This document shows, in pieces, positions 1,928-49,505 of a DNA stretch of 49,646 bases. Below the pieces are notes generated by a model. That model ran no database searches. It was not told the origin of the DNA and saw only the letters and a list, made by a program, of their open reading frames with translations. Positions within the stretch are counted from its first letter, which is position 1. Every line of letters begins with the position of its first letter. The translations under genes were made by a program, and so were the position numbers. This DNA comes from a virus (lineage: Duplodnaviria; Heunggongvirae; Uroviricota; Caudoviricetes): the IMG/VR virus record IMGVR_UViG_2740892231_000005, one strand, 5' to 3'.

Positions 1928-1928
1928 A

Positions 1929-22149: not shown

Positions 22150-22730
22150 CCATTAGCAAGATACTGAACAAATCCCTCATGCGTTTCATGCGCGTCGTGG
22201 TACTGACGATAAACATCCAGCAACAATGCAATTTCCATATCCGTCGCGGGAATACGTTCTTTATCAATAGCCAGGTACTTAATTTGAACAACAGGGGAAG
22301 AATTATCGTCTTCTTCCTGCGGCTGTTCATCGCTTAACATTTCGTCAAGCTCTGCATCATTAAACCCAAGCAGATCAATATCAAAATCATCATCCATTAA
22401 CTCTTTGACTTCTTCGGCCAGAAGCTGCATATCCCAGCCAGCATTTAAGGCCAGCTTGTTATCTGCAATCCTGTAAGCCTTCTTCTGTTTTTCAGAAAGG
22501 TTACTCAACCGAATCGCCGGAACTTTATCCATTTCCAGAATTTCGGCTGCTGCAAGCCGACCATGCCCCGCAATCAGTTCATTCTTTTCATCGATCAGCA
22601 CAGGATTAGTGAAACCGAACTCACGGATACTGTTCACCAACTGTTCAACCTGCTCATCTGAATGAGTCCGTGAATTTTTGGCGTATCTGAGCAGCTTACC
22701 GACTGGTAAATATTCGATTTTTAGAGCCAT
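22140..22730 (-). CDS. ParB-like nuclease-domain protein (ParB/Srx fold)
   Basis: 196 aa; ParB N-domain motifs (LIAGHGRLAAA, KKAYRIADNKLALNAGW); paralogue of 25397..26020. Confidence 0.75.
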   Translation of the reverse strand: MALKIEYLPVGKLLRYAKNSRTHSDEQVEQLVNSIREFGFTNPVLIDEKNELIAGHGRLAAAEILEMDKVPAIRLSNLSEKQKKAYRIADNKLALNAGWDMQLLAEEVKELMDDDFDIDLLGFNDAELDEMLSDEQPQEEDDNSSPVVQIKYLAIDKERIPATDMEIALLLDVYRQYHDAHETHEGFVQYLANGCK

Positions 22731-23287
22731 TTTTTAACCGCCATAACACAACAGGTTAAAGAAAACTGTTTAACTTATTGATACTAAAAGAGAAAAATGA
22801 CGATCTTTTTACTCATAAAAAATCACACAAACCAGCATAATCATCTGATTTTATTAAGTTTTTATAAGTAAAAAGGATCTTGAGATGGTGTTTTGGTTAA
22901 AAGATTGGATGTATTTGCATGATTTATAACGATTTTTATCAGAACAACATCACATTGGTTAAAGATCTGCGCGTATCTTGATGATCTAAAAGAAAATTTT
23001 CTACTTTCTTTTTACCAGCACAAATACAGCAAAAAATCACGTTTTCCCGATATTTTTCAATGAGATGAGTAAATTTCTTTTACCGCAACTTTTAACCTAA
23101 CTTTTTTCACGTTTAGCTAGCCGAACATCGGGGTTCGAATGACCCGCATCCAACGCTTTTGGCCAGAAGGACCCAATTCTGCCGGACGATGAAACGATGC
23201 TCGTGCTCCCCCACAGACAGCCAGCGAGCGACGCTACAGAACACAGTGAATACACTCTGCATAACAACACCATCAACCACACGATGA

Positions 23288-24007
23288 TTAACGAGAGAAG
23301 GTCTTAGAAAGAATGTCATCAATAGCCTTTGTGACTTCATCAGCAAACGCATCCTCACCAGCACGCAGCGCCACGCCATGCCAATCAAGACGCTGCGAAT
23401 AGTTAGGTTGCTGGATAAACGTAAGGATCAACGTAGGACGCCGCCCAACGCGCTGCCAGACGCCTGGTTGAAGCGGGTTACTTGTACCAGGTCGAACAAC
23501 AAAAAACTCCGTAGGCTTGCCCTGACGGCGATTTTGATGCGCATCTCGCTGAACTCTTAGGCCAGATAAGACCTGCTGTAATTGCCCCCGCGAAATATTC
23601 CCGTATTTATCCAGCTTTGCGCCGGGACCAGGAGCAAGCTGCCAGCCGTTAGGCAAATATCCACCAGCCCTTAGCGCCCCTTCTGAGCGTTTGTACTGTC
23701 GTTGGCCACCTTCGATTTGCGGAGTCAACGTTACAGGGGCTGGCGTTCCTCCCCATTCACGAGCATACACAATGGCTGTAGGATCACTCTTCTTTGCGGC
23801 CAAAACGTAAGTAGAGTTCTGAATCCACGGCGTGGGCCTGTCAAATACCCGATTAATTTCATTCTTAATCGCAGCCTGAGAAGCCTTTGCCGTTCTGGTT
23901 GCCGCAAGCGCCATTGCGAACGGCAATTCGCGTTCTTCAAGGCGCTGGAGTTGTCGTTGAATATCCTGAGAAGAAAAATCCATCTTTATCTCAATTCTGT
24001 CAGCCAC
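23288..24007 (-). CDS. Hypothetical protein
   Basis: 239-aa ORF embedded in the ParB-like cluster; no recognisable domain. Confidence 0.45.
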   Translation of the reverse strand: MADRIEIKMDFSSQDIQRQLQRLEERELPFAMALAATRTAKASQAAIKNEINRVFDRPTPWIQNSTYVLAAKKSDPTAIVYAREWGGTPAPVTLTPQIEGGQRQYKRSEGALRAGGYLPNGWQLAPGPGAKLDKYGNISRGQLQQVLSGLRVQRDAHQNRRQGKPTEFFVVRPGTSNPLQPGVWQRVGRRPTLILTFIQQPNYSQRLDWHGVALRAGEDAFADEVTKAIDDILSKTFSR

Positions 24008-24023
24008 CAGCGCCTCCTACACA

Positions 24024-25403
24024 CTACTTAATCAACGGCCGGAAAGCCGCCAGCACATCATCAGATCGTCCGATTGTTGAACCACCAGGCAACGGCAACT
24101 CAAACTCAAAACGAACAGCTTTCTCCAGACTCGCCCAACTAAGGGAATCATCGTTAATGACGTGCAAATACCAGCTCTTACAGTTGAATATTGACCGCTT
24201 AATCCTGAAACCATGTACACGACACAACTGCTTCACTTCATCATCAGAATGAAACTTCTGGTAAAACCAGTGCCCCTTCCGGTACAACGCGGTAAAACCG
24301 TTATGATCAATAAAATAAAGCCGGCTTTTGGAACTCGCCGCTTGTGTTTGCTTCAGGACTGTTTCCAGCTCTCCACGGCTACGGCCAGAAAAGAATATTG
24401 ACCCACCAGCTTTACACAGGCCTTTCAGAACCGTCAGAACGGACCATTCAGCCTCGACACTATCGACCGAGTTCAAAACGCTATCGCAAATCACGTAGTC
24501 GTAACGCCCTCGCGTTTTTAAGTCGTCCACCAGCGTATCAATCATTCGGTTTGTTGCAGCCCTATCCAGAGTGTTTCCAGCGCCCTTACGGCGGAAAAGC
24601 TCGAGATCATGCAGGTTATATCCCTTTGCCCTGAGCATTCGCGCGTAGTCTCCCTGCCCCGAACCAAAATCAATTCCTCTTGGCGTCTTGGCAATAATCG
24701 GGAGGATCAACGACTCATACAGATTTGATTTCAGGCTGCCACCATTACGCAACCGCATAAGCTGCGCATACGTCTGGATGTATGTTGTTTTCTCCAGATG
24801 AGAATACTCAAATACACCATAAGTTTTATTCAGATAACTTTGGTATTTTTCCTTCTCAACATCAGGGATCACAAACACCGTTAGCGGTGTGCGCGTCATT
24901 TTCGCTGCTAATGCATACTGAGCACAGTGAATAACCTCACCAGACTGAGTAGCAACACAACCACCCCACGGACCATACTTGATAACCAGTTCCGCTATGT
25001 TCTTTCGAACATATGCCATTTTCGCGCGCATATTGCCTGAGATCTGGCTTGCCGATACCTGAACAAAACCATGCTTATCTTCCAGACCGGACACCCTGCA
25101 ACGCTCATCTCCGCTATCAAAATCCGTTCCGTTATGCAGTTGGTTAAACCGTACTTCGTCGTATACCGTCGTTTCACAGGGCAACACATACACCGCAGCA
25201 CGCGTTATTCCCAATTTACGTAGCGCCTTCGTCCTTTGGTGTCCCGCCACCAGCAAATCGCCGCGCACTATCAATGGCTTCACAAGCCCCAGCTCCCTGA
25301 CGCTTTCCGCCAGCCTCGCAAGATCATCCTCACCGATAAAACGCGGGTTATATTCCGCGCCGCGTAGGTGCGTTATGTCGTAATTGAGGTGAAGCATCAG
25401 CAC
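24024..25403 (-). CDS. ParB-like N-terminal domain fused to a class I SAM-dependent methyltransferase domain
   Basis: 459 aa; N-terminus LVAGHQRTKALRKLG (ParB-like); C-terminal half with GIDFGSGQGDYARML (motif I) and DYVICDSVLNSV; no DPPY/NPPY motif seen. Confidence 0.7.
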   Translation of the reverse strand: MLMLHLNYDITHLRGAEYNPRFIGEDDLARLAESVRELGLVKPLIVRGDLLVAGHQRTKALRKLGITRAAVYVLPCETTVYDEVRFNQLHNGTDFDSGDERCRVSGLEDKHGFVQVSASQISGNMRAKMAYVRKNIAELVIKYGPWGGCVATQSGEVIHCAQYALAAKMTRTPLTVFVIPDVEKEKYQSYLNKTYGVFEYSHLEKTTYIQTYAQLMRLRNGGSLKSNLYESLILPIIAKTPRGIDFGSGQGDYARMLRAKGYNLHDLELFRRKGAGNTLDRAATNRMIDTLVDDLKTRGRYDYVICDSVLNSVDSVEAEWSVLTVLKGLCKAGGSIFFSGRSRGELETVLKQTQAASSKSRLYFIDHNGFTALYRKGHWFYQKFHSDDEVKQLCRVHGFRIKRSIFNCKSWYLHVINDDSLSWASLEKAVRFEFELPLPGGSTIGRSDDVLAAFRPLIK

Positions 25404-27884: not shown

Positions 27885-28085
27885 TTAATGCTCGCGTCGT
27901 CCGGCGACAACTTCGGATTTGTATTTCAGGTCGCCCAGCAAGAATTGCAGTTTAAGCATCTTTGCCGCCGTGTAGTTCCCTGATTCCACAACCTCTTTCA
28001 TGAGGTCATAAACGGCCGCTACATCATCAGCCAGGAACTCTTTGCGTTGCTGCTCAGTCGCACGTTTGAAGGAAATACGCATCAC
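27885..28085 (-). CDS. Hypothetical protein
   Basis: 66-aa ORF overlapping the stop of the upstream ORF. Confidence 0.4.
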   Translation of the reverse strand: MMRISFKRATEQQRKEFLADDVAAVYDLMKEVVESGNYTAAKMLKLQFLLGDLKYKSEVVAGRREH

Positions 28086-28351
28086 TCATCATCTCCTGCC
28101 GCACATACAACCTCACAAAAAACATCAGCGGAATGTTTCTTTTTGAATGAATGGCGCTCAAAACCGCACTCAATATCAGGCGCAAAAACATCCACCACAT
28201 ACGGTCTTTCAGAATGTTTGTTTTCCCAACGATAAACCGTAGTGACGTTGAAATGTTTTAACGCTTCACGGAACTCAACGCTGCCAGTCAGGTTTTTTGA
28301 GGTCAGGTATTGCAGGAGGTTTTTTACTACTTCACGGTCTTGTACTTTCAT
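28082..28351 (-). CDS. Hypothetical protein, first gene downstream of promoter cassette copy 1
   Basis: 89-aa ORF; start preceded by the conserved leader. Confidence 0.5.
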   Translation of the reverse strand: MKVQDREVVKNLLQYLTSKNLTGSVEFREALKHFNVTTVYRWENKHSERPYVVDVFAPDIECGFERHSFKKKHSADVFCEVVCAAGDDE

Positions 28352-28466
28352 CGGGTTATCTCCGGTTTAACCAGGGCGGGTATCGCTCGGTTTCGGTTAT
28401 AACCTTAGGAAATTTTTTCCCACCCGTAAAGCACTTTTTATATAAATCTATAATTATATAATTCTA
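28352..28466 (-). promoter_or_regulatory. Repeated promoter/operator/leader cassette, copy 1
   Basis: About 110 bp near-identical to 35372..35490 and 45515..45630; ends in the TATAATTATA palindrome (28449..28458). Confidence 0.6.
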
Positions 28467-29051
28467 TGACACTTGCCAGAGAGCATCATGCAACTGGATA
28501 CCTCCGTTGCACTGGTTGCCCCAGCCATGCCAGCCATCAGGTAAATCACCGCGAGCAAACAGCTCAATACGAGGAACATCACCTAACAGTCTTACCAGCT
28601 TGTCACGAACCACATCAGGCTTCCGTGAATGTTCCAGACGAGGCGATGTAAACGACTGAATGATCCCCGCATCAAGGCGAGTCGGCAGTTTGCCTTTTAC
28701 CGCAAACAAGCAATCTTCACTGTTCGCACGAGTCATATGCCCCATCCCCATCACCAGCTTATCTGGCTGTCGGCTACCACATTTGTTCCATGTGAAGCCC
28801 TTCATGGTCATCAGCCTGAATCCCCATGCTTTCACCACCAGCAACGCTTCTTCTGGCTGAGTCGGAACCCACCACATGGCCAACAAACACGATTCAGGAT
28901 TAGCAAGCTGCCAGACAGGAATACGAGCAATCTCCTCAGCTTTCATCGTTGGATACTTAAAACCAGCTCCACGATTCCCATCCTTACACTTGTCTTTGTA
29001 TTCCCAGGGGGGATCTGCATAAATCAGATTAAACAATGCAATTGCCTCCAT
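28464..29051 (-). CDS. N6-adenine DNA methyltransferase, MT-A70 family
   Basis: 195 aa; DPPW motif in the N-terminus (LIYADPPWEY). Confidence 0.8.
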   Translation of the reverse strand: MEAIALFNLIYADPPWEYKDKCKDGNRGAGFKYPTMKAEEIARIPVWQLANPESCLLAMWWVPTQPEEALLVVKAWGFRLMTMKGFTWNKCGSRQPDKLVMGMGHMTRANSEDCLFAVKGKLPTRLDAGIIQSFTSPRLEHSRKPDVVRDKLVRLLGDVPRIELFARGDLPDGWHGWGNQCNGGIQLHDALWQVS

Positions 29052-29349: not shown

Positions 29350-29425
29350 GAGAGTGAATTGGTGGCCCCTACCGGATTTGAACCGATGACCGTGCGATTA
29401 TGAGTCGCCTGCTCTAACCACTGAG
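29350..29425 (-). tRNA. tRNA with CAU anticodon (Ile2/ileX-like, or Met)
   Basis: 76 nt; cloverleaf folds by hand (acceptor GGCCCCT/AGGGGCC, D-stem GCTC/GAGC, T-stem ATCGG/CCGGT, CCA end); one mismatch at the top of the anticodon stem. Confidence 0.8.
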
Positions 29426-29604
29426 CTAAGGGGCCATATTTGATCTGTTTGTCTGGTGTGGCGCCGCGCACGAAAATCCCAGCCAATAAATTCAGGATTT
29501 TTGGGCGCGGCGGCATATCAGACAAACATGGTTGATGCATGCGCTAATGAGAAAAGCGCATAGAATGTTGTAACTATATATTTATATAATTATAGAAATA
29601 TATA

Positions 29605-29814
29605 TTACTTTGGACAGTTGATTTCCCATGCCCTGTTATGAGCCAGAATATCTTTCTTTGTCTGGCGGTCCATAACATCGATATCGTGATCAGTCAGGTA
29701 GATGGGCTTTACCCAATCACAGGCGGTATCAACCACCACCGGGACGCTTCCACGACTCCCGCAGCTCGCGATCAACATCGTCATCAGCCATATGGTTAAC
29801 ACTCTGCTGTACAT
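29605..29814 (-). CDS. o-spanin (Rz1-like outer-membrane lipoprotein)
   Basis: 69 aa; signal peptide with lipobox-like LIASC; overlaps the 3' end of the i-spanin gene in another frame. Confidence 0.65.
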   Translation of the reverse strand: MYSRVLTIWLMTMLIASCGSRGSVPVVVDTACDWVKPIYLTDHDIDVMDRQTKKDILAHNRAWEINCPK

Positions 29815-33582: not shown

Positions 33583-33948
33583 TCACTTCAACTCCTCCCG
33601 ACGACGTTCCTGAAGCTCTAGCATTGCGGCTCGGAAATCCTGCCACCATTCTTCATCGGCTACTGGGGTGTTCCGCTCCAGCACCTTGTCCGCATCGGCG
33701 ATCAGGTTTGCCAGACTCTTGTCTGAAATCTTCGTTACCGGAGTCGTTGGTTGCTCAACCTGCCCGATAGGTTTTATCGTGCTCAAAAGGAGGCGACGGC
33801 GGGAAAGTGGTGCCCCACAACGACGGCCATCTTCCTTGCGATATGTTTCTTTCGGACCAACACACCAGGTTGTCGGCGTCTCGCGCAACTTCACTTTTTT
33901 CTCACCATCATTGGTAATGATTATTCCGGTATGTGTTTTGATGCTCAT
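33583..33948 (-). CDS. Hypothetical protein
   Basis: 121-aa ORF. Confidence 0.4.
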   Translation of the reverse strand: MSIKTHTGIIITNDGEKKVKLRETPTTWCVGPKETYRKEDGRRCGAPLSRRRLLLSTIKPIGQVEQPTTPVTKISDKSLANLIADADKVLERNTPVADEEWWQDFRAAMLELQERRREELK

Positions 33949-34247
33949 GCCACAGCCCCTCTCAACGGCTTAACTTTGGCTAATAAGGTGTTAAACAACA
34001 TGGAGTTAGGATTCATGCCAAATGGCAATTCCGGTTTAGCGGAGTAGTACAGGCAACCATTTATTTTCCTGGTTGTTATCTGTCCTTCGGCAACCATGCT
34101 TCTCAGTCTGCAACGCATAGAGTTCTGCGACACACCAATGTGCTCCGCGATTACGTCCACTTTTGAACATGGGTGATCGGTCAGGAAATTAATCACATCT
34201 TGGGGGTTAATAATTTTGCGTTTCATTGTCGAGGCATCCTTATACAT
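33945..34247 (-). CDS. Putative winged-helix DNA-binding protein
   Basis: 100 aa; HTH-like segment VDVIAEHIGVSQNSMRCRLRSMVAEGQI. Confidence 0.45.
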   Translation of the reverse strand: MYKDASTMKRKIINPQDVINFLTDHPCSKVDVIAEHIGVSQNSMRCRLRSMVAEGQITTRKINGCLYYSAKPELPFGMNPNSMLFNTLLAKVKPLRGAVA

Positions 34248-34273
34248 TTATATAAATATATAATTCTATATAC

Positions 34274-34303: not shown

Positions 34304-35371
34304 TCAGGCTTTCAATAGCGATTCTTTTAGATATCGGGCATCAGCCAGGGCGTTTGGAGTAATCTTGCGAACCCATGCATTACGGGTTGGACTCCACTTA
34401 AAGGCGCGTGATTTAAGCAGCGAACGAATGTTTGCCTCTGGTTTGCCAGGGAAATAAAACAGGATGCGGTTATCCTCTGGATCTATCTCCATAGAAAAGC
34501 CGTCGTATTCTTCGCGCTGTGCTCCTGTTACAGACTTGACCGATTCAAGCTCCTTAATACGGCTCTGTAGTCGTTTGATTTCGGCGTTATTGTTGCTCAG
34601 TGCGTATGAAGGGAATCCGATGCGCCCACAGAAATCTCCGGCCAGTAACTCTTTGGCTTCGCTTTCTGTAAACCTGAGATCGATTAATGCAGAAAGCTGC
34701 TGTAATTGGTCTTTTTTGTATTTGCGAATGGCCTTATTTGCGGCCTTCATTTTGACGTGTGACTTCATGCAGCCTTGCAGCTTACGAAGCAACTTAAATA
34801 GCGCATCAGGATCATCAGACGAAATTCCATTACGACCAACACCTGCGGCTTTGCTCTCGTAGTGTGATGCTTTACTTTCGCATTCAACAAACGCTTTTCT
34901 TAATAACGCATCAGCTTTAGACAAACGGCGGCGATGGCCTTTCGCGCTATAATGGTCAACTAAAATCGGCTGGCCTAACGGGATCACATCCAACAGGTCA
35001 TGCGCTCGCTTATGCGCTACCGCACCTTCTTTTCTGGCTTTTTCTGCACGAGCAATATATCGGGCAAGACGCGCGTTCTGGCGTTCCTGATAGGTGTTTA
35101 CGTAATCATCTCCGCGCTGCTGCTGTTCAAGCCATGCTTTGCGCAGATCTTCTGTTACGTCCACCAGCTCCGCAGGGATACAACCAGTTTGGGCTTCATA
35201 AGAGTAACCATCCTCATAGATACGCCCATCATCTTCAACAAAGAAAAAGGTTTCGTGCTCATCGCTTTTGACCATACGACCATTAACATGGCGTAATAGG
35301 TAGCCAGTATCAGTGCTTAACAGGCTGTTAGGGTTGTTGATCCAGTCAGAAATAATTACTTGTTTATTCAT
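34304..35371 (-). CDS. DUF3560-like protein (tentative), first gene downstream of promoter cassette copy 2
   Basis: 355 aa from MNKQVIISDW (start chosen by conserved leader and RBS); C-terminal FYFPGKP...FKWSPTRNAW motif. Confidence 0.5.
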   Translation of the reverse strand: MNKQVIISDWINNPNSLLSTDTGYLLRHVNGRMVKSDEHETFFFVEDDGRIYEDGYSYEAQTGCIPAELVDVTEDLRKAWLEQQQRGDDYVNTYQERQNARLARYIARAEKARKEGAVAHKRAHDLLDVIPLGQPILVDHYSAKGHRRRLSKADALLRKAFVECESKASHYESKAAGVGRNGISSDDPDALFKLLRKLQGCMKSHVKMKAANKAIRKYKKDQLQQLSALIDLRFTESEAKELLAGDFCGRIGFPSYALSNNNAEIKRLQSRIKELESVKSVTGAQREEYDGFSMEIDPEDNRILFYFPGKPEANIRSLLKSRAFKWSPTRNAWVRKITPNALADARYLKESLLKA

Positions 35372-35490
35372 CAGATTTCTCCGGTTTAACCAGGGCGGGT
35401 ATCGCTCGGTTTCGGGCATAACCTTAGGAAATTTTTTCCCACCTGTAAAGCACTTTTTATATAAATCTATAATTATATATTTATAGATTT
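35372..35490 (-). promoter_or_regulatory. Repeated promoter/operator/leader cassette, copy 2
   Basis: Near-identical to copies 1 and 3; contains TATAATTATA (35468..35477). Confidence 0.6.
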
Positions 35491-38064: not shown

Positions 38065-38721
38065 ATGAAAAGCAACGACGAGAACATCAAGAAAGAAATA
38101 GGTCTGCGCATTCAGACTCTACGGAAACAATCCGGCATGACTGCCGGAGATCTCCAGCAAGTCACTGGAATAGGCTTAAGCACCTTGCAGAACTATGAGG
38201 CCGGATTAAGACAACCATCTATACCTGCCATCAAGAAAATCGCGCACGCCCTGAAAGCATCAGCGCCTTATATCGCGTGCTTAACAGATAACCCGTTCCC
38301 ACCCCAGAATACTAACGCTCCTGTTATTCCTGGGCTTGTAGCTATAAAAAATGACATAGCATCGCACGCCGGAGAAAAGCCAGTGCTGGCGATAGAACAG
38401 GAGATTCTACGAAGCAAGAACATCAACCCATCGTCTCTGTCAGTTCTCCAGAGCAACGATGAGTTAATGTCACCAACAATATCCCCTGGCTCCCAAGTCC
38501 TGATTAATACAGACGATACAGAGATTCATGAGGGGATCTATGCCCTTGAAGACAGAAATGGCCTGGTTGTTTTGAGGCACTGTAGAGTCATACCGGGTGA
38601 CAATGCTGTTATGCTGTCAACCGAAAGGGATGCTGAAATGAACACTAAGCATCTGAATAATGAGGAATTTAAGCGTTATAAAGTTCTTGGCCGCGTAGTT
38701 AGTGTTGTCAACTGGTTATGA
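38065..38721 (+). CDS. cI: CI-like repressor (N-terminal XRE HTH, C-terminal S24/LexA-like domain)
   Basis: 218 aa; HTH (LRKQSGMTAGDLQQVTGIGLSTLQNYEAG); C-terminal domain with S24-like features. Confidence 0.8.
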   Translation: MKSNDENIKKEIGLRIQTLRKQSGMTAGDLQQVTGIGLSTLQNYEAGLRQPSIPAIKKIAHALKASAPYIACLTDNPFPPQNTNAPVIPGLVAIKNDIASHAGEKPVLAIEQEILRSKNINPSSLSVLQSNDELMSPTISPGSQVLINTDDTEIHEGIYALEDRNGLVVLRHCRVIPGDNAVMLSTERDAEMNTKHLNNEEFKRYKVLGRVVSVVNWL

Positions 38722-38813: not shown

Positions 38814-39188
38814 ATGGAATTACATACAGCCAATAAAAACGAAACTCTGATCACTGCTGGAATCGAAATCCAAGCGTTGAACATAGCGATTGAGTGTATG
38901 TTATGCCAAATCATTGATAATGAGAAAGATATCGACTGGATAGAATCTATCCTTCATCTGGCATCAGAACAAAAAATCTGCCTCAAAACGGCCTTACAAT
39001 ACGATGTGCCAGCGGTATCGAAGCTGTGCCAACCATTGATGGCATATAACAGAGCTATTATTTCTGTATGCCTCATGATTCTCGATGAAAACACCCCTCT
39101 TAGCGACCGCTCAGAAGCTGCTCTAACCCTCTCACGTAAACAGCGACAGCTAGCAAATCAACTGATATCAACGATAGCTGACCTCTGA
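38814..39188 (+). CDS. Hypothetical protein co-oriented with and downstream of the repressor gene
   Basis: 124-aa ORF; AT-rich by eye; followed by a hairpin. Confidence 0.5.
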   Translation: MELHTANKNETLITAGIEIQALNIAIECMLCQIIDNEKDIDWIESILHLASEQKICLKTALQYDVPAVSKLCQPLMAYNRAIISVCLMILDENTPLSDRSEAALTLSRKQRQLANQLISTIADL

Positions 39189-39192
39189 CTGC

Positions 39193-39212
39193 AAGCGGGC
39201 TAACGCCCGCTT
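39193..39212 (+). terminator. Hairpin (aagcgggc-taac-gcccgctt) closing the repressor operon
   Basis: 8-bp GC stem; weak U-tract. Confidence 0.45.
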
Positions 39213-39320
39213 ATATGATTATAGATTTATATAATTATATAAAACGCTTTTCATCCGCCAAAAAGTTGGTTATGCTTACCTCGTTCTATAAATATAGATT
39301 TATAGAATTATATAATCAAA
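39213..39320. repeat. AT-rich iteron cluster (tatgattatagatttatataattatataa ... tataaatatagatttatagaattatataat) upstream of parA; candidate centromere or operator
   Basis: Contains exact TATAATTATA (39230..39239) and the repeated unit ATAGATTTATA. Confidence 0.55.
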
Positions 39321-39338
39321 CACATGGAGTCTCGACAA

Positions 39339-39992
39339 ATGACTATCTCTGTAGGTATTTTCAACGGAAAAGGCGGCGTAACCAAATCAACAATTGCCCG
39401 TGCTTTAGCAGTTGCTTATGCAAAGGCTGGCTGGAATGTATGCCTGATCGATATGGATGTGCTTAACGGAACGGTAACGCGTTGGGTACAACGCAGAATG
39501 GCCAACAATATCGAACCAGCAATCGCGGCGCAGCCGTGCGGCACACCATCACAAGTCCAGAAAATCATCGAATCAGAAGTATACGACTTGGTTATCGTCG
39601 ATGGCGGTGCCTACGCATCTGAATCAGTACCGAAGCTCTCTGAATTTCTGGATATGGTTATTTTGCCAACCAGATTCTCTACCGATGACCTGGAAACCAC
39701 CGTTAACACAGCTCACGGCATCGTTAAAAAGGGTGTACCAATCAAGAAAATTTGCATGGTGTTTTCCGGCGCGGCTGAAAACGAAGCTGACTATATTGAA
39801 GCCCAAGAGTACCTGGCTAATACGCCATACTTTGTTGTCGATAAGTACATTCCCCACAAGCCAGCTCTGAGCAAAGCTCAGGATAAGGGCTTAAGCCTCA
39901 TTGAGTGCTCATACGTTGCGCCACGCAAAAAGGCAGACGACGTTATTCAGGGGATTATCAACCAGCTTGAGGCTCTGACTACTGCCGCGTAA
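39339..39992 (+). CDS. parA: ParA-family partition ATPase
   Basis: Deviant Walker A GKGGVTKST; start chosen at the second ATG with GGAG RBS (ORF track gives 39324). Confidence 0.8.
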   Translation: MTISVGIFNGKGGVTKSTIARALAVAYAKAGWNVCLIDMDVLNGTVTRWVQRRMANNIEPAIAAQPCGTPSQVQKIIESEVYDLVIVDGGAYASESVPKLSEFLDMVILPTRFSTDDLETTVNTAHGIVKKGVPIKKICMVFSGAAENEADYIEAQEYLANTPYFVVDKYIPHKPALSKAQDKGLSLIECSYVAPRKKADDVIQGIINQLEALTTAA

Positions 39993-40020
39993 TATATAAT
40001 TATAGTTTTATAGATTTATA
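39985..40020. repeat. Second iteron block (aatatataattatagttttatagatttatataa) between parA and the RHH gene
   Basis: Exact TATAATTATA at 39995..40004. Confidence 0.5.
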
Positions 40021-40035
40021 TAAGAGGGGATGCAC

Positions 40036-40284
40036 ATGGCCGCACCATCAAAACCACCAAAGAAGAACAGCAAAGGCGTACCGCCATCGATCGAACAACC
40101 GCAGGTTTTCGACCCGACTGAAACGCCAACCAGAACCAAATCAGGTGGGGCACAAATGGCGTTTAACGTCGACCCTGAATTTAAACGCGAGTACAAAACG
40201 TTCGCCAGCTCAATGGATATGTCATTGAAAGAAGTGCTGACAAAATCTTTTGAGTTACTCAAGGCTCAATACAACCAGAAGTAA
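40036..40284 (+). CDS. ParG-like ribbon-helix-helix centromere-binding protein (type Ib partition)
   Basis: About 82 aa; disordered basic N-tail then RHH-like C-terminus (MAFNVDPEFKREYKTFASSMDMSLKEVLTKSFELL); directly after parA. Confidence 0.55.
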   Translation: MAAPSKPPKKNSKGVPPSIEQPQVFDPTETPTRTKSGGAQMAFNVDPEFKREYKTFASSMDMSLKEVLTKSFELLKAQYNQK

Positions 40285-40313
40285 GAGAAGGTGACGGCCT
40301 CCAGCGCCAACTG

Positions 40314-40496
40314 TTGGCCGTCGCGACACAACAAGGGGAATTTGTTATGTCCGAGCAACAATATACACGGTTACTGAAAACTCGTCTAACCGACCTCAAA
40401 CGGCTGCAAGCTGGTCGCTTATTTGCCCTGCTATCCACCAGGCCAGAATGGGTACGTGAAGCAGTTCTGAAAGGCTTAATGCGCTCCAGCGTTTAA
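40314..40496 (+). CDS. Hypothetical small protein
   Basis: 60-aa ORF downstream of the partition genes. Confidence 0.3.
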   Translation: MAVATQQGEFVMSEQQYTRLLKTRLTDLKRLQAGRLFALLSTRPEWVREAVLKGLMRSSV

Positions 40497-40506: not shown

Positions 40507-40528
40507 AAAAAAGGCCCCCGAAGGGGCC
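40507..40528 (-). terminator. Intrinsic terminator hairpin (ggccccc-gaa-ggggcc) with U-run on the minus strand; possibly bidirectional
   Basis: A6 run on the plus strand 40507..40512 immediately 5' of the stem. Confidence 0.55.
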
Positions 40529-40537
40529 TAATCGCTA

Positions 40538-40660
40538 CTTGCTGCTAATGTTTATCGTCACATTCAGAGCGTTATCAGTAATCTTCCAACCCTCCCCATG
40601 TGGCGTAAACAAAGCTCCAGTAACAACGATAAAAATACACATACAGTATTTTTTCATTGT
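40538..40660 (-). CDS. Small ORF (40 aa, MKKYCMCIFIVVTGALFTPHGEGWKITDNALNVTINISSK) with signal-peptide-like N-terminus
   Basis: Hand-translated; AAGGG RBS 6 nt upstream; terminator directly downstream. Confidence 0.3.
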
Positions 40661-41054
40661 ATGGCCCTTACAGGCCGTTTCACGGCATCCCCACCGACGA
40701 AAACAACGCGAGAGCAAGCACGGCTGCTTGTGCTTGCATGTACGGCAACGGAGAATCCTCCCCTAAAGTCGGTGCCCGGGTGCGAATCGGCGGGAAGGTC
40801 CACAGGTATTTTACGATTATTTTAAGATTAGTAATAGGAAAGAAATTAAACGAAAAAACTCGTTTATTTTCACAAAATCAGTAACCTACCCACAATCTGT
40901 GAGTTTGCAGGCACAACAAGAACCACAATTTTTTGAAGCATAATAGTGGACTATTATTACCTTTTGGGTAAAATTAACTTGCTGCTTGTGCTTGCGTGGT
41001 TGTTTATACAACAACGTAATGCTGAAAGGACCGCGAATCCGATCAGCACGAAAG

Positions 41055-41789: not shown

Positions 41790-42081
41790 TAGTCTGTTAA
41801 AATCCGCCGTATTGACATGAATGCGTCATTGGTGGACACTTTCCGAGCCGTAGCAAAATCTACGGTCGGGATTGGCGTCCCGATTGCACAATGGCGCATA
41901 CCGCGTTAGCGGTTTTTTTATGCGTAAAGCACTGCTACACCCAAATTATGGTGGGGCGTGCGGGGGCGGAGAAATCCGCGCCGGGTTTGTCATTGTGCCG
42001 GTTACGCCAACCCTGTACGTCTCACCACCATATTGATTGGCGTCATTGGTGGTGATAGTTCCTTTAATCGGAGATATCACA

Positions 42082-42273
42082 ATGACAAACCTACCCCATG
42101 ACTATTACGTCAACCTCGTAAAGATCCTTCTCAAGAAAGCCTCATACGCCGATAAATTCCGCCTGGCTGAAATCATCGAGCGCGAAGCTATGCGCATCGC
42201 CAGCAACGATAACGCTGTTTCTGACGCAAAAATCTCCCTCGTAACCAAAGTTGTTATGGGAGGTGCAAAATGA
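42082..42273 (+). CDS. Small protein upstream of, and translationally coupled to, the antirepressor gene (icd-like position)
   Basis: 63 aa from MTNLPHDYY with GGAGA RBS; its stop overlaps the ant start (ATGA). Confidence 0.45.
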   Translation: MTNLPHDYYVNLVKILLKKASYADKFRLAEIIEREAMRIASNDNAVSDAKISLVTKVVMGGAK

Positions 42274-43421
42274 AAACGCTTCCGACCGTTAACACCCTAC
42301 AGCCTATCCTGCATAATCAGATTCCAGTAATCACAACTGAGCTACTCGCCCGCCTTTATGGAACAGAAGCAATCCGTATACAGCAAAATCACCATGAAAA
42401 TAAAACTCGGTTCATTGAGGGGAAGCACTTCTTTAAAGCTGTTGGTGATGAACTCAAAAATTTGCGACTAGTTTTAAACGAGTCACAAAATGAGGTGCAA
42501 ATTTCCCCCAAAACTCGCTCTCTCATCCTCTGGACAGAACGCGGGGCTGCACGTCACGCCAAAATGCTTGAAACTAACCAAGCGTGGGATGTGTTCGAAC
42601 GGCTGGAAGACTGCTATTTCAACCAGAACGCGCAAACGGCCGCGACCGTAACCGTCTCGCCAAACAATGCTCGTGAGGTTGTCGATACGCTCAACGCCAA
42701 ACCGATGTTTTACATTAAGGTGTGCAACAACGAGCCACTCACAACCTCAGCCGATGTTGCCCAGGCATTCAGCACCACAAACAATTCCATCGTTATGGCC
42801 ATCGATGCGTTACGCATTCCTCGCACAGCTGCGGCACGTCATTTCTTTAAAGAGCAACGACCGCTGGAAGGAAGCGACCGCGAAATAACAATCTATCGCA
42901 TGACAAAAGACGGATTTACCTTGCTCATGGAAAGTATCGACGGTCCAGGCGTGAAAGATATCAAGCTGGCCTACATTGAAGCCTTTAACGCTATCAGCAG
43001 CGTGTTAAAAACACAGTACGAGCGTGATCTGGCTAAACGACTGTACCAGGAAAAAACGATTATCCGCGCGGCAACAGAGCATAATCGGCTATTAACGGAA
43101 CCGAACTACAGGAAGGAACTAATCAAGGAGTTTGACAAGGCAACAGGGAAAACCAAAGCGGCGCTAAATCTGCCAGCAATGACTCAGGAAAATGTGATAT
43201 CAGCCTTACTTCTTGATCTGCTCAGAAACGCCAGAGCACTTATCAGCTTTGACGAAAACCTGAATCCTCAGCTCAAGCTACTACCACCGACAGGCAAAGT
43301 AGTCGACCAAGCTGATCACAACAGCATACTCAGCGTTCTGGATGCAAACCTGCCAGCCAGGACACTACAGGATCTGATAAAAACATGTGCTGATAAGCTG
43401 GCACAGAAAAGCAGACCATAA
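42270..43421 (+). CDS. Antirepressor-like protein (ORF6N/Rha-type N-terminal domains)
   Basis: 383 aa; two N-terminal segments resembling ORF6N/Rha-type antirepressor domains (PVITTELLARLYGTEAIRIQQNHHENKTRFIEGKHFF). Confidence 0.7.
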   Translation: MKTLPTVNTLQPILHNQIPVITTELLARLYGTEAIRIQQNHHENKTRFIEGKHFFKAVGDELKNLRLVLNESQNEVQISPKTRSLILWTERGAARHAKMLETNQAWDVFERLEDCYFNQNAQTAATVTVSPNNAREVVDTLNAKPMFYIKVCNNEPLTTSADVAQAFSTTNNSIVMAIDALRIPRTAAARHFFKEQRPLEGSDREITIYRMTKDGFTLLMESIDGPGVKDIKLAYIEAFNAISSVLKTQYERDLAKRLYQEKTIIRAATEHNRLLTEPNYRKELIKEFDKATGKTKAALNLPAMTQENVISALLLDLLRNARALISFDENLNPQLKLLPPTGKVVDQADHNSILSVLDANLPARTLQDLIKTCADKLAQKSRP

Positions 43422-45133: not shown

Positions 45134-45514
45134 TTACTTAACGAGGAATAAAAATGGTTTATTGTTCGGCGGTGTAATCGGGGCTGGCTCGCTTTTGCTC
45201 ATGCGATCAGTGTACCAGGCCAACTCCTTGTCAAAGTAAGCCTGATTAAAATAGGCCATGAATGTAGTTTCAAATCCATAACGACCGCTAATACGCAGCA
45301 TCTGATTGCCGTTCTCTGTTTCCAGATATACCTGGGCACGTTCCTGATTCTCCTTCAGCCAGGTTAAAGCCTCATCGCATGAGGACACACGATACTCATC
45401 ATCGTAGCAGTCATCGATGCGGCTTGAGGAAGAACGGCAAATCACGCCAACAGAACCAGCCAGGATAGTTTGAATTTTAAGGAAAGCGTTTTTGCGGATT
45501 TTAATCATGCTCAT
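45134..45514 (-). CDS. Hypothetical protein, first gene downstream of promoter cassette copy 3
   Basis: 126-aa ORF with the conserved leader and RBS upstream. Confidence 0.5.
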   Translation of the reverse strand: MSMIKIRKNAFLKIQTILAGSVGVICRSSSSRIDDCYDDEYRVSSCDEALTWLKENQERAQVYLETENGNQMLRISGRYGFETTFMAYFNQAYFDKELAWYTDRMSKSEPAPITPPNNKPFLFLVK

Positions 45515-45630
45515 CGGGTTATCTCCGGTTTAACCAGGGCGGGTATCGCTCGGTTTCGGGTATAACCTTAGGAATTTTTTTCCCACCTGTAAAGCACTTT
45601 TTATATAAATATATAATTATATAATTCTAT
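45515..45630 (-). promoter_or_regulatory. Repeated promoter/operator/leader cassette, copy 3
   Basis: Near-identical to copies 1 and 2; TATAATTATA at 45612..45621. Confidence 0.6.
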
Positions 45631-45635
45631 GAGCA

Positions 45636-47786: not shown

Positions 47787-48779
47787 TTAATGTTGGAGTG
47801 ATTTCCAGGTCTTTCTTAGCCTGTTATAACGCTGCTCAACGAGGGAGCGTAAATATGCAAGGTCAGCACCAGGATACATGCCATCAGCAAATTCCTGGCT
47901 AACCTCTCTAGTGATTTGATGGCGAAGTTCGGCCTCTCCCTTTTCCTGAACAAGACGCGCAGCTCTCTCCGCTGCTTTCTGTTTTGCCTTTATCTCTCTG
48001 GCCGTCTTCCTCTGACGCCATACATTCTCCATCTGCTCCTGAATAACAATACGCTTATAATCAGCCTCCGTTATCGCTTTTTTAAGCCGTTCGCTATTCT
48101 TCGCATTGAAGTAATTAAGTTTCTGGCTAACCGCACGTCTCCATGCTTGTTCAGTAATACCAACTGTTTCCAGCAGTTGATCACGAATCTCGATTTTCGC
48201 TGGCCAATACTGTTTATTCACCCGATCCCAGCGACGTTCATAATCAATAAAACCTAACTCTTTCAGTTGCGACAACGCCCTTGTACAGCGCGTTATAGAC
48301 TTGTTCCCAGCTTCGGATACGGTAGACAGGCCGCAAAAATCAGCCAACGCCTCAGCACTGGCCAGAACCCGCTTAGAAATGATGTTTACATGGTGCAAAA
48401 TCGCAGCAATCACAGCATTAATCGCCCGACGACGATGCTCGTTTATCCGGCGTTTCCGCTCTGACGGTTGATTAACGTAGAACGCAACCTCACACGTAAG
48501 ATCACGACCATTAATGCGCTGTAAAGCATCAGATAACACCAGCGGCAGCTTGTGCGTATGGTGCTTTGGAGGCTGGAACTCCGGCGACAAATTACAAACG
48601 TAAGCTGAACGTAGAGACGGCATTGGTCTATCCATATGTTCGCTCTTGCGTCCACGGAAAACCAACGTATAATGGGAGTTGTCGAGGCGCCCATGGTTAG
48701 TTGTTGGTTTTCCTTTCCGTGGATGTCGCAAGAAGCCCGCAGATTTATCTGCGGGCTTTTTGTTTCCATATCTGGTCAC
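47787..48779 (-). CDS. repA: Plasmid replication initiator, IncFII RepA1-like
   Basis: 330 aa; SITRCTRALSQLKELGFIDYERRWD resembles the recalled RepA1 segment SITRATRALTFLSELGLITYQTEYD. Confidence 0.75.
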   Translation of the reverse strand: MTRYGNKKPADKSAGFLRHPRKGKPTTNHGRLDNSHYTLVFRGRKSEHMDRPMPSLRSAYVCNLSPEFQPPKHHTHKLPLVLSDALQRINGRDLTCEVAFYVNQPSERKRRINEHRRRAINAVIAAILHHVNIISKRVLASAEALADFCGLSTVSEAGNKSITRCTRALSQLKELGFIDYERRWDRVNKQYWPAKIEIRDQLLETVGITEQAWRRAVSQKLNYFNAKNSERLKKAITEADYKRIVIQEQMENVWRQRKTAREIKAKQKAAERAARLVQEKGEAELRHQITREVSQEFADGMYPGADLAYLRSLVEQRYNRLRKTWKSLQH

Positions 48780-48950: not shown

Positions 48951-49505
48951 TCAATGATTCCCAGCCGGAAACCTGCGGTAAAGCGTGGATAAGGTAACAT
49001 CGAAGATAATCGCTATCCGCTTACGTGAAACACCATTCGCAATAAGCCTTCCGATCTGTTCCCATTGCTCTGGTGCCAATTTTGAGCGGCGTCCTCCTAT
49101 CCTGCCGTTAGCCCTTGCCACCGCCAATCCTGCACGCGTTCTTTCAATCATATTTTCCCGCTCCATCTCTGCGACTGCACTCAGCATCGTGTAGGCAAAG
49201 CGGCCAATTGAAGTGCTAATTTTTATCCCTTCCGTAATCGAAATAAACTCAATGTTGTTTGATAAAAAATAGTTTAGTAAATCAACAAGATGAATCAGAG
49301 AACGCCCCATTCGGTCCAGCTTCCAGACAATAACCGTATCGCCCGGCCGTAACACCTTCAGTAGCTTATCAAGTCCTGGTCGTTTTGATTTAGCACCGGA
49401 TATTTTATCTTCAAAAATCCGGTCACATCCTGAACTCCTGAGCGCCTCCAATTGTAATTCCAAATTCTGGTCAAAAGTTGACACCCTCGCATAACCATAT
49501 TGCAT
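48951..49505 (-). CDS. Serine DNA invertase, Gin/Cin/Pin/Hin family
   Basis: 184 aa; N-terminal YARVSTFDQ with catalytic Ser; alignable by eye with Gin along the full length. Confidence 0.95.
   Translation of the reverse strand: MQYGYARVSTFDQNLELQLEALRSSGCDRIFEDKISGAKSKRPGLDKLLKVLRPGDTVIVWKLDRMGRSLIHLVDLLNYFLSNNIEFISITEGIKISTSIGRFAYTMLSAVAEMERENMIERTRAGLAVARANGRIGGRRSKLAPEQWEQIGRLIANGVSRKRIAIIFDVTLSTLYRRFPAGNH

What the first reader, a model, noticed from the sequence alone, without database searches (positions are those of the whole stretch)
39213..40284. Type Ib-like partition module (ParA plus small RHH protein) flanked by the same iterons found in distant promoters
The ParA ATPase gene is followed by a small protein with a basic tail and RHH-like core, typical of ParG/ParR-type centromere binders. 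Iteron blocks lie upstream and between the genes. Together with RepA at 47.8 kb this supports extrachromosomal maintenance of the prophage. The shared iterons elsewhere suggest a regulatory role beyond partition.
Basis: partly seen in the sequence, partly recalled or inferred. Interest (0 to 1): 0.5.

Follow-up and report, generated by a model that had tools for sequence, protein, structure and literature searches.

The report
Phage-plasmid partition module with dispersed operators
A small ParA ATPase and an 82-residue ribbon-helix-helix DNA-binding protein form a plasmid-partition module in a ~49 kb E. coli phage-plasmid. The protein's 32-bp binding arrays sit around its own genes and also in front of five other transcription units, so it probably regulates other phage genes too.

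Summary

- **The element.** The window is a ~49 kb circular phage-plasmid. It is 100% identical to an E. coli plasmid over the queried 1.9 kb par region. It occurs in 71 of 5,426 complete E. coli genomes, with 71 of 72 copies on plasmids, and it has also been recovered as Yersinia phages.
- **The genes.** parA (39339-39992, 217 aa) has a deviant Walker A motif. It is followed by an 82-aa protein (40036-40284) with a disordered lysine-rich N-terminal tail and a C-terminal ribbon-helix-helix (RHH) domain. The fold is supported by an AF2 model (pLDDT 90-95), by Foldseek top hits that are all RHH, and by relatives that hit RHH Pfam families.
- **The arrays.** Each array is four contiguous 8-bp units of TTATAKAW. 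There are exactly eight: two bracket the parA promoter, one lies between the two genes, and five sit in front of other transcription units at 28-46 kb. Chance expects none.
- **Comparative evidence.** Relatives with diverged RHH proteins carry different unit cores (TTA-AAK-AW, TTA-GCG-AW), changed in all their arrays, dispersed ones included. The core tracks two presumed DNA-facing β-strand residues. An ordinary Halomonas plasmid with a homologous pair has arrays only at par.

Best reading: a type Ib partition system resembling TP228 ParFG in array architecture, whose centromere-binding protein probably doubles as a multi-promoter regulator, as ω does in pSM19035 and KorB in RK2. DNA binding, partition and regulation are inferred, not shown.

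The parts
39193..39212 (+). GC-rich hairpin (AAGCGGGC-TAAC-GCCCGCTT) ending the upstream 124-aa gene; the first array starts at its 3' edge
   Evidence: Read from the sequence. The homologous hairpin is present in Salmonella, Serratia and IMG/VR relatives (alignment A5).
39211..39242 (.). Iteron array 1: TTATATGA TTATAGAT TTATATAA TTATATAA, lying upstream of the putative -35 of the parA promoter
   Evidence: The position is conserved in relatives.
39248..39276 (+). Putative parA promoter: -35 TTTTCA, 17-nt spacer, -10 TATGCT (inferred)
   Evidence: It aligns with TTTACA-17-TAAGCT in Serratia L007 and TTTACT-17-GATAAT in IMG/VR L019. The simple consensus scan did not call it.
39284..39315 (.). 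Iteron array 2: TTCTATAA ATATAGAT TTATAGAA TTATATAA, lying between the putative -10 and the parA SD, where a bound protein would block transcription
39339..39992 (+). parA: 217-aa Walker-type partition ATPase of type Ib size, with no N-terminal HTH
   Evidence: Pfam CbiA, ParA and MipZ all above cut-off. PHROG 164 'ParA-like partition protein', E 9e-39. NCBIfam ParA_partition 78.6 bits, below the equivalog cut-off of 180. PDB ParF 4dzz E 3e-4. K11, G12, G13, K16, T18, D38 and D88 are invariant across 8 cognate ParAs.
39992..40023 (.). Iteron array 3: ATATATAA TTATAGTT TTATAGAT TTATATAA, lying between the parA stop and the SD of the small gene
   Evidence: A homologous array is present at the same place in L002, L005, L007 and L009. 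In L003, L006 and L019 an array lies downstream of the small gene instead; in L004 and L022 the two genes abut with no array between them.
40036..40284 (+). ParG-like centromere-binding protein, 82 aa: residues 1-40 are a disordered lysine-rich tail with the conserved motif KPPKKNSKGVPP; residues 41-80 are strand-helix-helix (RHH)
   Evidence: No Pfam, NCBIfam or PDB sequence hit for the protein itself. PHROG 6024, 'unknown function'. Family-level evidence: RHH_10 in 31 of 81 relatives, ParG in 4 of 81. AF2 pLDDT 90-95 for residues 41-80. Foldseek matches listed are all RHH-type, target-normalised TM about 0.64-0.86 for the clear single-domain RHH hits. hhalign against ParG gives probability 67%. 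In all 13 contexts examined the gene directly follows a parA.
28352..28469 (-). Array (28438-28469) plus repeated promoter/leader cassette, copy 1, driving the 89-aa gene 28082-28351 and downstream genes
   Evidence: The downstream genes belong to PHROGs of unknown function.
29574..29605 (.). Array upstream (on the minus strand) of tRNA-Met 29360-29435 and the MT-A70 methyltransferase gene 28464-29051
34240..34271 (.). Array directly upstream of the SD and start (34226) of the 93-aa gene 33945-34226 (-), preceded on that strand by the hairpin ACGGCGGGA-GACG-TCCCGCCGT
   Evidence: The gene hits PHROG 1687, 'MarR family' regulator, E 3e-31.
35393..35488 (-). Array (35457-35488) plus promoter/leader cassette, copy 2, driving the DUF3560/primase-like gene 34304-35392
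45515..45632 (-). Array (45601-45632) plus promoter/leader cassette, copy 3 (-35 TTTACA 45593-45588, -10 TAAGGT 45570-45565), driving the 126-aa gene 45134-45514; an intrinsic terminator (45663-45641) lies immediately upstream
47787..48779 (-). IncFII-type RepA. This is context: the replication function that the partition module serves
   Evidence: Pfam IncFII_repA, E 5.5e-44.

Best explanation
This is a type Ib (small ParA plus RHH centromere-binding protein) partition module of a circular phage-plasmid.

**Proposed mechanism.** Dimers of the 82-aa RHH protein coat arrays of four contiguous 8-bp units of the form TTA-TAK-AW, one dimer per unit. The two-stranded β-sheet reads the 3-bp core, and the AT-rich flanks act as spacers. 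Coated arrays present the lysine-rich N-terminal tails to nucleoid-bound ParA-ATP. This stimulates the ATPase and drives segregation of plasmid copies. The two arrays that bracket the parA promoter also autoregulate the operon.

**The five other arrays.** They have the same sequence and lie just upstream of promoters of other early or accessory transcription units. One of them directly follows a called intrinsic terminator. Three of them carry a repeated ~85-nt promoter/leader cassette. This makes the protein a multi-promoter regulator of the phage-plasmid, and possibly gives the element several centromeres. The arrangement parallels ω of pSM19035 and KorB of RK2.

**Shown here:** the genes, the fold class, the arrays, their placement, and their co-variation with the protein.

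**Inferred:** DNA binding, ATPase stimulation, partition, and the sign of regulation. Repression seems likely at parA. At the cassettes the arrays span roughly -42 to -74, so either repression or activation is possible.
For: 1. **Module identity.** ParA family hits are above cut-off and the Walker motifs are invariant. The RHH fold of the partner is supported. The gene pair is conserved in all 13 contexts examined, on phage-plasmids and on ordinary plasmids.

2. **Arrays are far beyond chance.** There are 8 blocks against 0 expected. All have exactly four units, all fall between 28 and 46 kb, and none falls in the 27-kb structural-gene half.

3. **Conservation.** A Salmonella relative about 77% identical in the par region keeps arrays at all eight syntenic positions (seven at the 28/32 threshold, one at 26/32) with the same units.

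4. **Co-variation of unit position 4.** It is T in 32/32 units (window) and 31/32 (Salmonella). It is A in 26/32 (Serratia p2, complete 46.8 kb, also 8 arrays in a 2+1+5 layout), 20/20 (IMG/VR L019) and 17/20 (L003). The dispersed arrays are included in these counts.

5. **Unit core tracks β-strand residues 42 and 44.**
   - A/N goes with TAK (window, L002).
   - N/N goes with AAK (L003, L005, L007, L019, L022).
   - N/K goes with GCG (L004, L021, L024).
   - N/R goes with ACGC-type cores (L009, L008).
   - Sources.

6. **Common denominator.** The Halomonas plasmid L009 shares only the ParA/RHH pair with the window, yet has the same architecture of two arrays upstream of parA and one between the genes, with an 8-bp period. 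It has no arrays elsewhere. This ties the arrays to the pair rather than to phage proteins.

7. **Homologous promoter cassette with a swapped operator.** Serratia p2 has the cassette three times (TTGCAG/CTTGAT-17-TAGTAT/TAATAT ... AAACCGGAGATAACCCGATG), each headed by its own iteron type.

8. **Precedents.**
   - TP228 ParG binds 4-bp boxes separated by 4-bp AT-rich spacers, which gives an 8-bp period. One dimer binds per box, and the OF operator doubles as a centromere (PMC3130281).
   - pSM19035 has six parS sites that overlap three promoters. It needs at least 4 contiguous repeats to activate ParA (PMC9499535).

9. **Extrachromosomal state.** 71 of 72 E. coli copies lie on plasmids.
Against: - No experiment supports binding, partition or regulation.
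- ParA scores below the NCBIfam equivalog cut-off.
- The promoter hexamers are inferred from alignment and are weak by consensus. The consensus scan did not call them.
- Concerted change of the repeats could partly reflect homogenisation between copies rather than selection by one protein.
- The residue-to-core correlation rests on five classes, and other parts of the proteins differ too.
- The arrays are AT-rich and near promoters, so an UP-element-like contribution cannot be excluded.
Confidence: 0.72

Rival explanations
1. The module is a partition system, but the five distant arrays are only additional centromere sites, as in the dispersed sopC-like sites of prophage N15. They have no meaningful effect on transcription, and their position near promoters is incidental.
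For: Dispersed centromere-like sites are documented for N15, RK2, pSM19035 and pMF1 (PMC3235114). Every array has four contiguous units, which is the minimum that activates ParA in pSM19035. The third par array sits between the genes in some relatives and after them in others, so it is not tied to a promoter.
Against: Across two diverged lineages, three arrays keep the same distance of 6-7 nt from the -35 of a conserved promoter cassette. One array directly follows a called terminator and others follow terminator-like hairpins, and all immediately precede genes. This is operator-like placement. In the known analogues, binding at such sites does regulate transcription.
Confidence: 0.15
2. The arrays are bound by some other factor: the conserved 124-aa protein encoded just upstream (38814-39188), the cI-like repressor (38065-38721), or a host nucleoid protein. 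On this reading the small RHH protein binds elsewhere, or only at par.
For: The 124-aa gene is syntenic in the phage-plasmid relatives and has no known function. AT-rich arrays are typical targets of nucleoid proteins.
Against: The Halomonas plasmid lacks both the 124-aa gene and the cI-like gene, yet keeps the same array architecture around the ParA/RHH pair; the E. coli 10-kb plasmid also lacks them but shows only short GC-rich repeats upstream of parA. The unit core changes with β-strand residues 42 and 44 of the RHH protein. Host proteins cannot explain lineage-specific cores such as TTAGCGAA.
Confidence: 0.07
3. The ParA-like ATPase and the RHH protein are not a partition system. They could be a pure transcriptional regulatory pair, or a positioning, exclusion or defence module, and plasmid stability rests on the toxin-antitoxin loci and resolvase instead.
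For: Neither protein reaches a curated equivalog threshold. The element also carries a RelE/ParE toxin-antitoxin pair, a ryfA locus and a recombinase.
Against: The gene order, protein sizes, N-terminal basic tail, iteron placement and association with replicons (IncFII RepA here, other Rep proteins on L008 and L009) are the canonical type Ib layout. The pair occurs on plasmids and phage-plasmids.
Confidence: 0.05

Closest known systems
TP228 ParF-ParG-parH/OF (type Ib partition, Salmonella Newport plasmid)
   Same: - Small Walker-type ATPase followed by a protein of about 80 aa with a flexible N-terminal tail and a C-terminal RHH domain.
- Binding sites are arrays with an 8-bp period, made of a short core and an AT-rich spacer, in direct and inverted orientation.
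- The arrays lie upstream of the operon and double as operator and centromere (PMC3130281).
- There is weak but detectable sequence similarity: ParF E 3e-4; ParG profile E 0.12 and hhalign probability 67%.
   Different: - The core sequence differs: TAK/TAT here against ACTC.
- The arrays are short (4 units) and number eight, spread over 17 kb. TP228 has one contiguous cluster of 20 boxes.
- The window protein does not hit Pfam ParG.
- The host element is a phage-plasmid.
pSM19035 / inc18 δ-ω (ParA plus RHH ParB and global regulator, Firmicutes)
   Same: The RHH centromere-binding protein's repeat arrays overlap several promoters, so it both partitions the plasmid and co-regulates copy control, partition and toxin-antitoxin genes. 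There are six parS sites per plasmid, and at least 4 contiguous repeats are required to activate ParA (PMC9499535). Here every array has exactly 4 units.
   Different: That system uses 7-bp heptads (WATCACW) in arrays of 7-10, against 8-bp units in arrays of 4 here. No sequence relationship was detected. The hosts here are Gram-negative. The regulated genes here are phage early or accessory genes of mostly unknown function.
RK2/IncP-1 IncC-KorB
   Same: A partition protein whose multiple operator sites across the plasmid make it a global transcriptional regulator (PMC5577506 and PMC11790492, listed; the detail of 12 OB sites is from my own knowledge).
   Different: KorB is an HTH ParB-CTPase sliding clamp (type Ia). 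It has an unrelated fold and mechanism, and it binds single palindromic sites rather than iteron arrays.
N15 prophage SopAB with dispersed centromere sites
   Same: It is a phage-plasmid whose partition sites are scattered through the genome rather than clustered next to the par operon (cited in PMC3235114; further detail is from my own knowledge).
   Different: It is a type Ia system with an HTH SopB. The plasmid is linear. The sites are single inverted repeats, not arrays of short iterons.

Membership tests
ParA/MinD (SIMIBI) deviant Walker A ATPases | Signature KGGxxK[ST] P-loop plus Walker A' and Walker B aspartates, with a Pfam model above the gathering score | tested here: met
   The motif GKGGVTKST occupies residues 10-18. 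K11, G12, G13, K16, T18, D38 and D88 are invariant in 8 cognates. CbiA scores 48 bits against 25.4, ParA 37.1 against 27.1, and MipZ 36.4 against 20.7.
Type Ib partition systems | Small ParA of about 200-230 aa without an N-terminal HTH, followed by a small non-HTH (RHH) centromere-binding protein | tested here: met
   ParA is 217 aa and the P-loop starts at residue 10. The partner is 82 aa with an RHH fold.
Type Ib partition systems | Repeat arrays (centromere and operator) adjacent to the operon | tested here: met
   Two arrays lie upstream of parA and one between the genes. The same layout is seen in 5 relatives: L002, L005, L007, L009 and L012; the other relatives place the third array downstream of the small gene or lack it.
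Type Ib partition systems | The cloned module stabilises an unstable low-copy replicon, and the binding protein stimulates the ParA ATPase | not testable with these tools
   This needs a plasmid stability assay and an ATPase assay.
ParF equivalog (NCBIfam NF041546 ParA_partition) | Score at or above the curated cut-off of 180 bits | tested here: not met
   The score is 78.6 bits over residues 5-206 against model positions 2-200 of 203. It is related, but not an equivalog.
ParG (Pfam PF09274) | Significant match to the ParG model | tested here: not met
   The window protein gives no hit at E up to 0.1. Only 4 of 81 relatives hit, best E 2.7e-4. The profile against PDB 1p94 gives E 0.12. hhalign gives probability 67%.
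Ribbon-helix-helix (MetJ/Arc) fold | β-strand followed by two helices, forming an intertwined dimer | tested here: inconclusive
ω (pSM19035) type global regulator and ParB | The RHH protein binds contiguous short repeats that overlap several promoters of the replicon | tested here: inconclusive
   The placement is met: 8 arrays, at least 4 next to inferred promoters. Binding and regulation were not tested. The repeat period (8 bp against 7) and the sequence differ, and no sequence homology was detected.

The most novel reading that the evidence does not exclude
The RHH partition protein acts as a genome-copy sensor that couples the plasmid state to the phage programme. With eight four-unit arrays per genome, about 32 dimers would be bound per copy. 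The onset of lytic replication would titrate the protein off the operators. That would switch the three cassette promoters and the other array-headed units (primase-like DUF3560 gene, MT-A70 methylase plus tRNA-Met, MarR-like gene) as a block. Each phage-plasmid lineage would carry a private specificity, through the 3-bp core and β-strand residues 42 and 44, which would also set partition incompatibility.
Probability: 0.2. Interest if true: 0.75.

Novelty: new variant of a known kind. Interest (0 to 1): 0.5.

Why it matters
Phage-plasmids are common in Enterobacteriaceae. This one is in 1.3% of complete E. coli genomes. A record labelled ATCC 25922 carries the three promoter cassettes. A Serratia relative carries blaTEM-1. 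Their maintenance and regulatory circuits are nevertheless mostly unannotated: the binding protein here is 'hypothetical' in RefSeq and 'unknown function' in PHROGs.

If the reading is right, a type Ib partition protein is wired into at least five other transcription units of a temperate phage. That would extend the ω and KorB principle, in which a partition protein also acts as a global regulator, to Gram-negative phage-plasmids.

The family also offers a natural series of pairings between β-strand residues and the 3-bp core (TAK, AAK, GCG, ACGC). This series could be used to study RHH specificity and partition incompatibility.

Tried and rejected
- **Direct hits for the small protein.** Pfam, NCBIfam and PDB sequence searches gave nothing. 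The word-indexed homologue search found only relatives of at least 79% identity. The exhaustive HMMER search was needed to reach the family.
- **First AF2 run.** Ten near-identical sequences gave a poor model with mean pLDDT 65. It was redone with 81 diverse sequences.
- **pSLy3 guess.** I guessed the element belonged to the pSLy3 phage-plasmid group. This is rejected, because pSLy3 belongs to the SSU5 supergroup. I found no named group for this element.
- **Literature.** Searches for the Yersinia and E. coli phage names, and for phage-plasmid plus RHH plus centromere, found no description of this par system. One preprint id was not held.
- **The search for related loci with the 81-sequence alignment.** It failed for lack of a conserved stretch. 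A smaller alignment worked.
- **Natural knock-out.** I looked for relatives that keep the promoter cassette but lack the par module. None exist in the phage or plasmid collections; the cassette and par co-occur, three copies per record.
- **Simple unit patterns.** They did not capture the arrays of L006, L023 and L024. These loci are used only qualitatively or not at all.
- **Cross-scans.** The two AT-rich unit types give marginal hits at 28/32 on each other's arrays in a shifted register. The lineage difference was therefore quantified per position instead.
- **Replication-origin iterons.** Rejected. The nearest array is about 2.2 kb from repA. To my knowledge IncFII RepA replicons do not use iterons. 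The same arrays accompany ParA/RHH pairs next to unrelated Rep genes.
Full report
**What the window is.** The 1.9 kb around the finding is 100% identical to E. coli plasmid NZ_CP070025.1 (48,850 bp, circular). It is 97.5-99.4% identical to the other E. coli, E. albertii, E. fergusonii and Klebsiella plasmid records listed, which are about 46-52 kb and all typed non-mobilizable. It is 98.9% identical to three Yersinia phage genomes, vB_YpM_39, 41 and 44. The left half of the window encodes a myovirus head and tail. The right end encodes an IncFII-type RepA (E 5.5e-44) and a serine recombinase. In complete E. coli genomes the par region occurs in 71 of 5,426 genomes, with 71 places on plasmids and one on a chromosome. 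The element is therefore a phage-plasmid. I found no paper that describes its partition system. My first guess that it belongs to the pSLy3 group was wrong.

**The two genes.** The ParA ORF is listed from 39324. ATG 39339 has a GGAG 9 nt upstream and is the start used by RefSeq and by homologues, which gives 217 aa. It passes the Pfam gathering scores of CbiA, ParA and MipZ. It hits PHROG 164, 'ParA-like partition protein'. It aligns over its full length with NCBIfam ParA_partition, but at 78.6 bits, below the 180-bit equivalog cut-off. It matches TP228 ParF in the PDB weakly, at E 3e-4. The deviant Walker A residues K11, G12, G13, K16 and T18, together with D38 and D88, are invariant among eight cognate ParAs that are 22-54% identical to it.

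The small gene most likely starts at ATG 40036, with a GAGGGG SD 6 nt upstream, and encodes 82 aa. On its own it hits nothing in Pfam, NCBIfam or PDB sequences. PHROGs lists it as family 6024 of unknown function. The word-indexed search found only relatives of at least 79% identity. The exhaustive HMMER search found 102 representatives, mostly 74-90 aa and 30-44% identical. Their alignment shows three parts:
- a conserved N-terminal lysine-rich motif (MA..KPPKK.xKGxPP);
- a variable linker;
- a conserved C-terminal block, LNFKVxxEFxREFKxxAAxxDMSMxxLL.

Of 81 members, 31 hit Pfam RHH_10, 17 hit Antitox_RHH, 6 hit 56B_RHH and 4 hit ParG. The family profile finds the RHH proteins 56B (2kel, E 0.09) and ParG (1p94, E 0.12) in the PDB. 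hhalign against the ParG sequence gives probability 67% and E 5e-5 over 44 columns. I recalled that sequence from memory; its residues 27-74 are confirmed by the alignment printed.

**The repeats.** The unit is 8 bp, TTATAKAW. TTATATAA is a perfect palindrome, and TTATAGAW occurs in both orientations. Each block is exactly four units (32 bp) in register. There are eight blocks: 28438, 29574, 34240, 35457, 39211, 39284, 39992 and 45601 (start coordinates). The 16-mer search gave 45 hits against 0.67 expected. A four-unit scan gave 8 blocks against none in 30 simulations. No block lies in the 27-kb structural half of the genome.

**Placement at par.** The order is: hairpin that ends the upstream gene (39193-39212), array 1, a putative promoter, array 2, SD, parA, array 3, SD, small gene. 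The promoter is -35 TTTTCA at 39248, a 17-nt spacer, and -10 TATGCT ending at 39276. Alignment with Salmonella, Serratia and IMG/VR relatives shows the same order. The relatives have clearer hexamers: TTTACA-17-TAAGCT and TTTACT-17-GATAAT. Array 2 therefore covers roughly +1 to +32 of the transcript, which is the natural position for autorepression. The promoter assignment is an inference; the simple consensus scan did not call it.

**Placement of the five distant arrays.** Three of them (28438, 35457, 45601) head a repeated cassette on the minus strand:
- the array;
- AAAGTGC;
- TTTACA, a 17-nt spacer, then TAAGGT;
- a leader of about 45 nt;
- AAACCGGAGATAACCCG, then the ATG.

The 45601 copy is preceded by a canonical intrinsic terminator. 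The cassettes drive an 89-aa gene, a DUF3560/primase-like gene and a 126-aa gene, mostly of unknown function. The array at 34240 follows a GC hairpin and abuts the SD of a 93-aa gene that hits a PHROG annotated as a MarR-family regulator. The array at 29574 precedes tRNA-Met and the MT-A70 methyltransferase gene. Each array thus sits at the head of a gene or transcription unit.

**Comparative tests.**

*Conservation.* Salmonella Weltevreden plasmid NZ_LN890526 is about 77% identical in the par region. It has arrays at all eight syntenic positions (seven at the 28/32 threshold, the eighth at 26/32), with the same unit.

*Co-variation.* Relatives whose small protein is 33-48% identical to the window protein were recovered with their genomic context. 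In all 13 contexts the small gene directly follows a parA, although two of those parA genes look frameshifted. In most of them 8-bp-period arrays could be recognised around the pair; for L020, L023, L024 and L008 no clear arrays were found. The core of the unit differs between lineages.
- Serratia marcescens p2 (CP083756.1, a complete 46.8-kb phage-plasmid with the same synteny) uses TTA-AAK-AW. It again has eight arrays: two upstream of parA, one between the genes and five elsewhere. Three of those five head a homologous promoter cassette (TTGCAG/CTTGAT-17-TAGTAT/TAATAT ... AAACCGGAGATAACCCGATG).
- Position 4 of the unit is T in 32/32 units (window) and 31/32 (Salmonella). It is A in 26/32 (Serratia), 20/20 (IMG/VR L019) and 17/20 (L003), with the dispersed arrays included.
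- Other viral contigs also show dispersed arrays of their own type: L019 has 5, L022 has 4, and L021 has 5 of the GC-containing TTAGCGAW type. Simulations give none.

*Residue-to-core correlation.* If the hydrophobic strand residues M41, F43 and V45 face the protein core, then residues 42 and 44 face the DNA.

| Residues 42/44 | Unit core | Loci |
|---|---|---|
| A/N | TAK | window, L002 |
| N/N | AAK | L003, L005, L007, L019, L022 |
| N/K | GCG | L004, L021, L024 |
| N/R | ACGC-type | Halomonas L009, E. coli 10-kb plasmid L008 |
| T/N | TAC-like | L006 |

This is suggestive rather than proof, because there are only five classes and other residues differ too.

*Common denominator.* Halomonas plasmid pTHAF12_c shares only the ParA/RHH pair with the window. 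It has the same 2+1 array layout at par (TAACGCWW units) and no arrays elsewhere in its 23 kb. The arrays therefore belong to the pair, not to the cI-like or 124-aa proteins, and dispersal is a feature of the phage-plasmid lineages.

**Mechanism.** The best-supported explanation is a type Ib partition system with the architecture of TP228. There, one ParG dimer binds each 4-bp box, the boxes are separated by 4-bp AT-rich spacers, box orientation is flexible, and the OF operator also works as a centromere (PMC3130281). Here the arrays are distributed over the replicon at promoters, as in pSM19035. In that plasmid six parS sites overlap the copS, δ and ω promoters, and at least four contiguous repeats are needed to activate the ParA ATPase (PMC9499535). 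All eight arrays here have exactly four units. Dispersed centromere-like sites are also known in N15, RK2 and pMF1 (PMC3235114), and KorB is the classical ParB that doubles as a global regulator. Whether the distant arrays regulate, partition or do both cannot be decided from sequence. Their fixed position 6-7 nt upstream of a conserved -35 in two lineages argues for regulation. I put 0.72 on the combined reading, 0.15 on centromere-only, and small weights on binding by another factor or on a non-partition role.

**Novelty and score.** The kind is known: type Ib partition with an RHH binding protein acting as autoregulator or global regulator. Three things are new:
- the RHH family is unannotated;
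- it has a readable specificity series;
- it is deployed at eight sites, including a triplicated promoter cassette, in a widespread enterobacterial phage-plasmid.

I rate it a new variant of a known kind, interest 0.5.

Noticed in passing
window 40507-40803 (-): There is a full-length match to Rfam ryfA RNA (142 bits against a gathering score of 80) immediately downstream of the par module. From my own knowledge, ryfA loci encode a small type I toxin (TimP), so this may be a further maintenance function next to par.
   Followed up: no
window 41847-42032 (+): isrK (67 bits) and C4 antisense RNA (72 bits) lie in tandem, upstream of the ash-family and ORF6N-domain genes annotated in the near-identical plasmid NZ_CP070025.1 (the long ORF at window 42270-43421 is the likely ORF6N homologue, not scanned here). 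This looks like a P1/P7-type immI antirepressor control region.
   Followed up: no
window 28352-28437, 35393-35456, 45515-45600 (-): There are three nearly identical copies of a promoter/leader cassette of about 85 nt, ending in AAACCGGAGATAACCCGATG. It is present three times in each of 62 plasmid records and 3 phage records. A homologous cassette occurs three times in Serratia p2. The roughly 45-nt leader is conserved for no obvious reason.
   Followed up: partly
window 29360-29435 (-): A tRNA-Met (CAT) gene lies between an iteron array and the MT-A70 methyltransferase gene.
   Followed up: no
window 40287-40496 (+): A hairpin (GACGGCC...GGCCGTC) and a 49-aa ORF (40347-40496) lie downstream of the small par gene, followed by a bidirectional terminator at 40512-40529. 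A similar hairpin and ORF start are visible at the same place in L005, L007 and L019. RefSeq annotates no gene between 13585 and 14364 of L001, the region that should hold this ORF. It has no family hit.
   Followed up: partly
window 1-4300 and 48951-49505: The tail-fibre region is 90-94% identical to the invertible tail-fibre segments of Mu, D108, P1 and P7. A resolvase/invertase-family recombinase lies next to it across the window ends. This is probably a Gin/Cin-type host-range switch.
   Followed up: no
L007 (CP083756.1) 22462-24062: The Serratia marcescens relative carries blaTEM-1 next to a recombinase gene, inserted between the tail genes and repA. This phage-plasmid family can therefore carry resistance genes.
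   Followed up: no
plasmid record NZ_CP009073.1 (E. coli ATCC 25922, 48,488 bp): This record, from a standard reference strain, carries the promoter cassette three times and has the same length as several records that hold the par module. It would be a convenient experimental host. I did not check the par module in this record directly.
   Followed up: no
L009 8672-8780 (Halomonas pTHAF12_c): Downstream of the small par gene there is a second, different 8-bp-period repeat (TCACAAAA TCACGTTT TGACGATT TCACAAAA). Its binding partner is unknown.
   Followed up: no
L020 and L023 (IMG/VR contigs): The parA reading frame upstream of the small gene appears broken by a frameshift, while the small gene extends upstream in frame. 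This is either sequencing error or decaying par modules.
   Followed up: no
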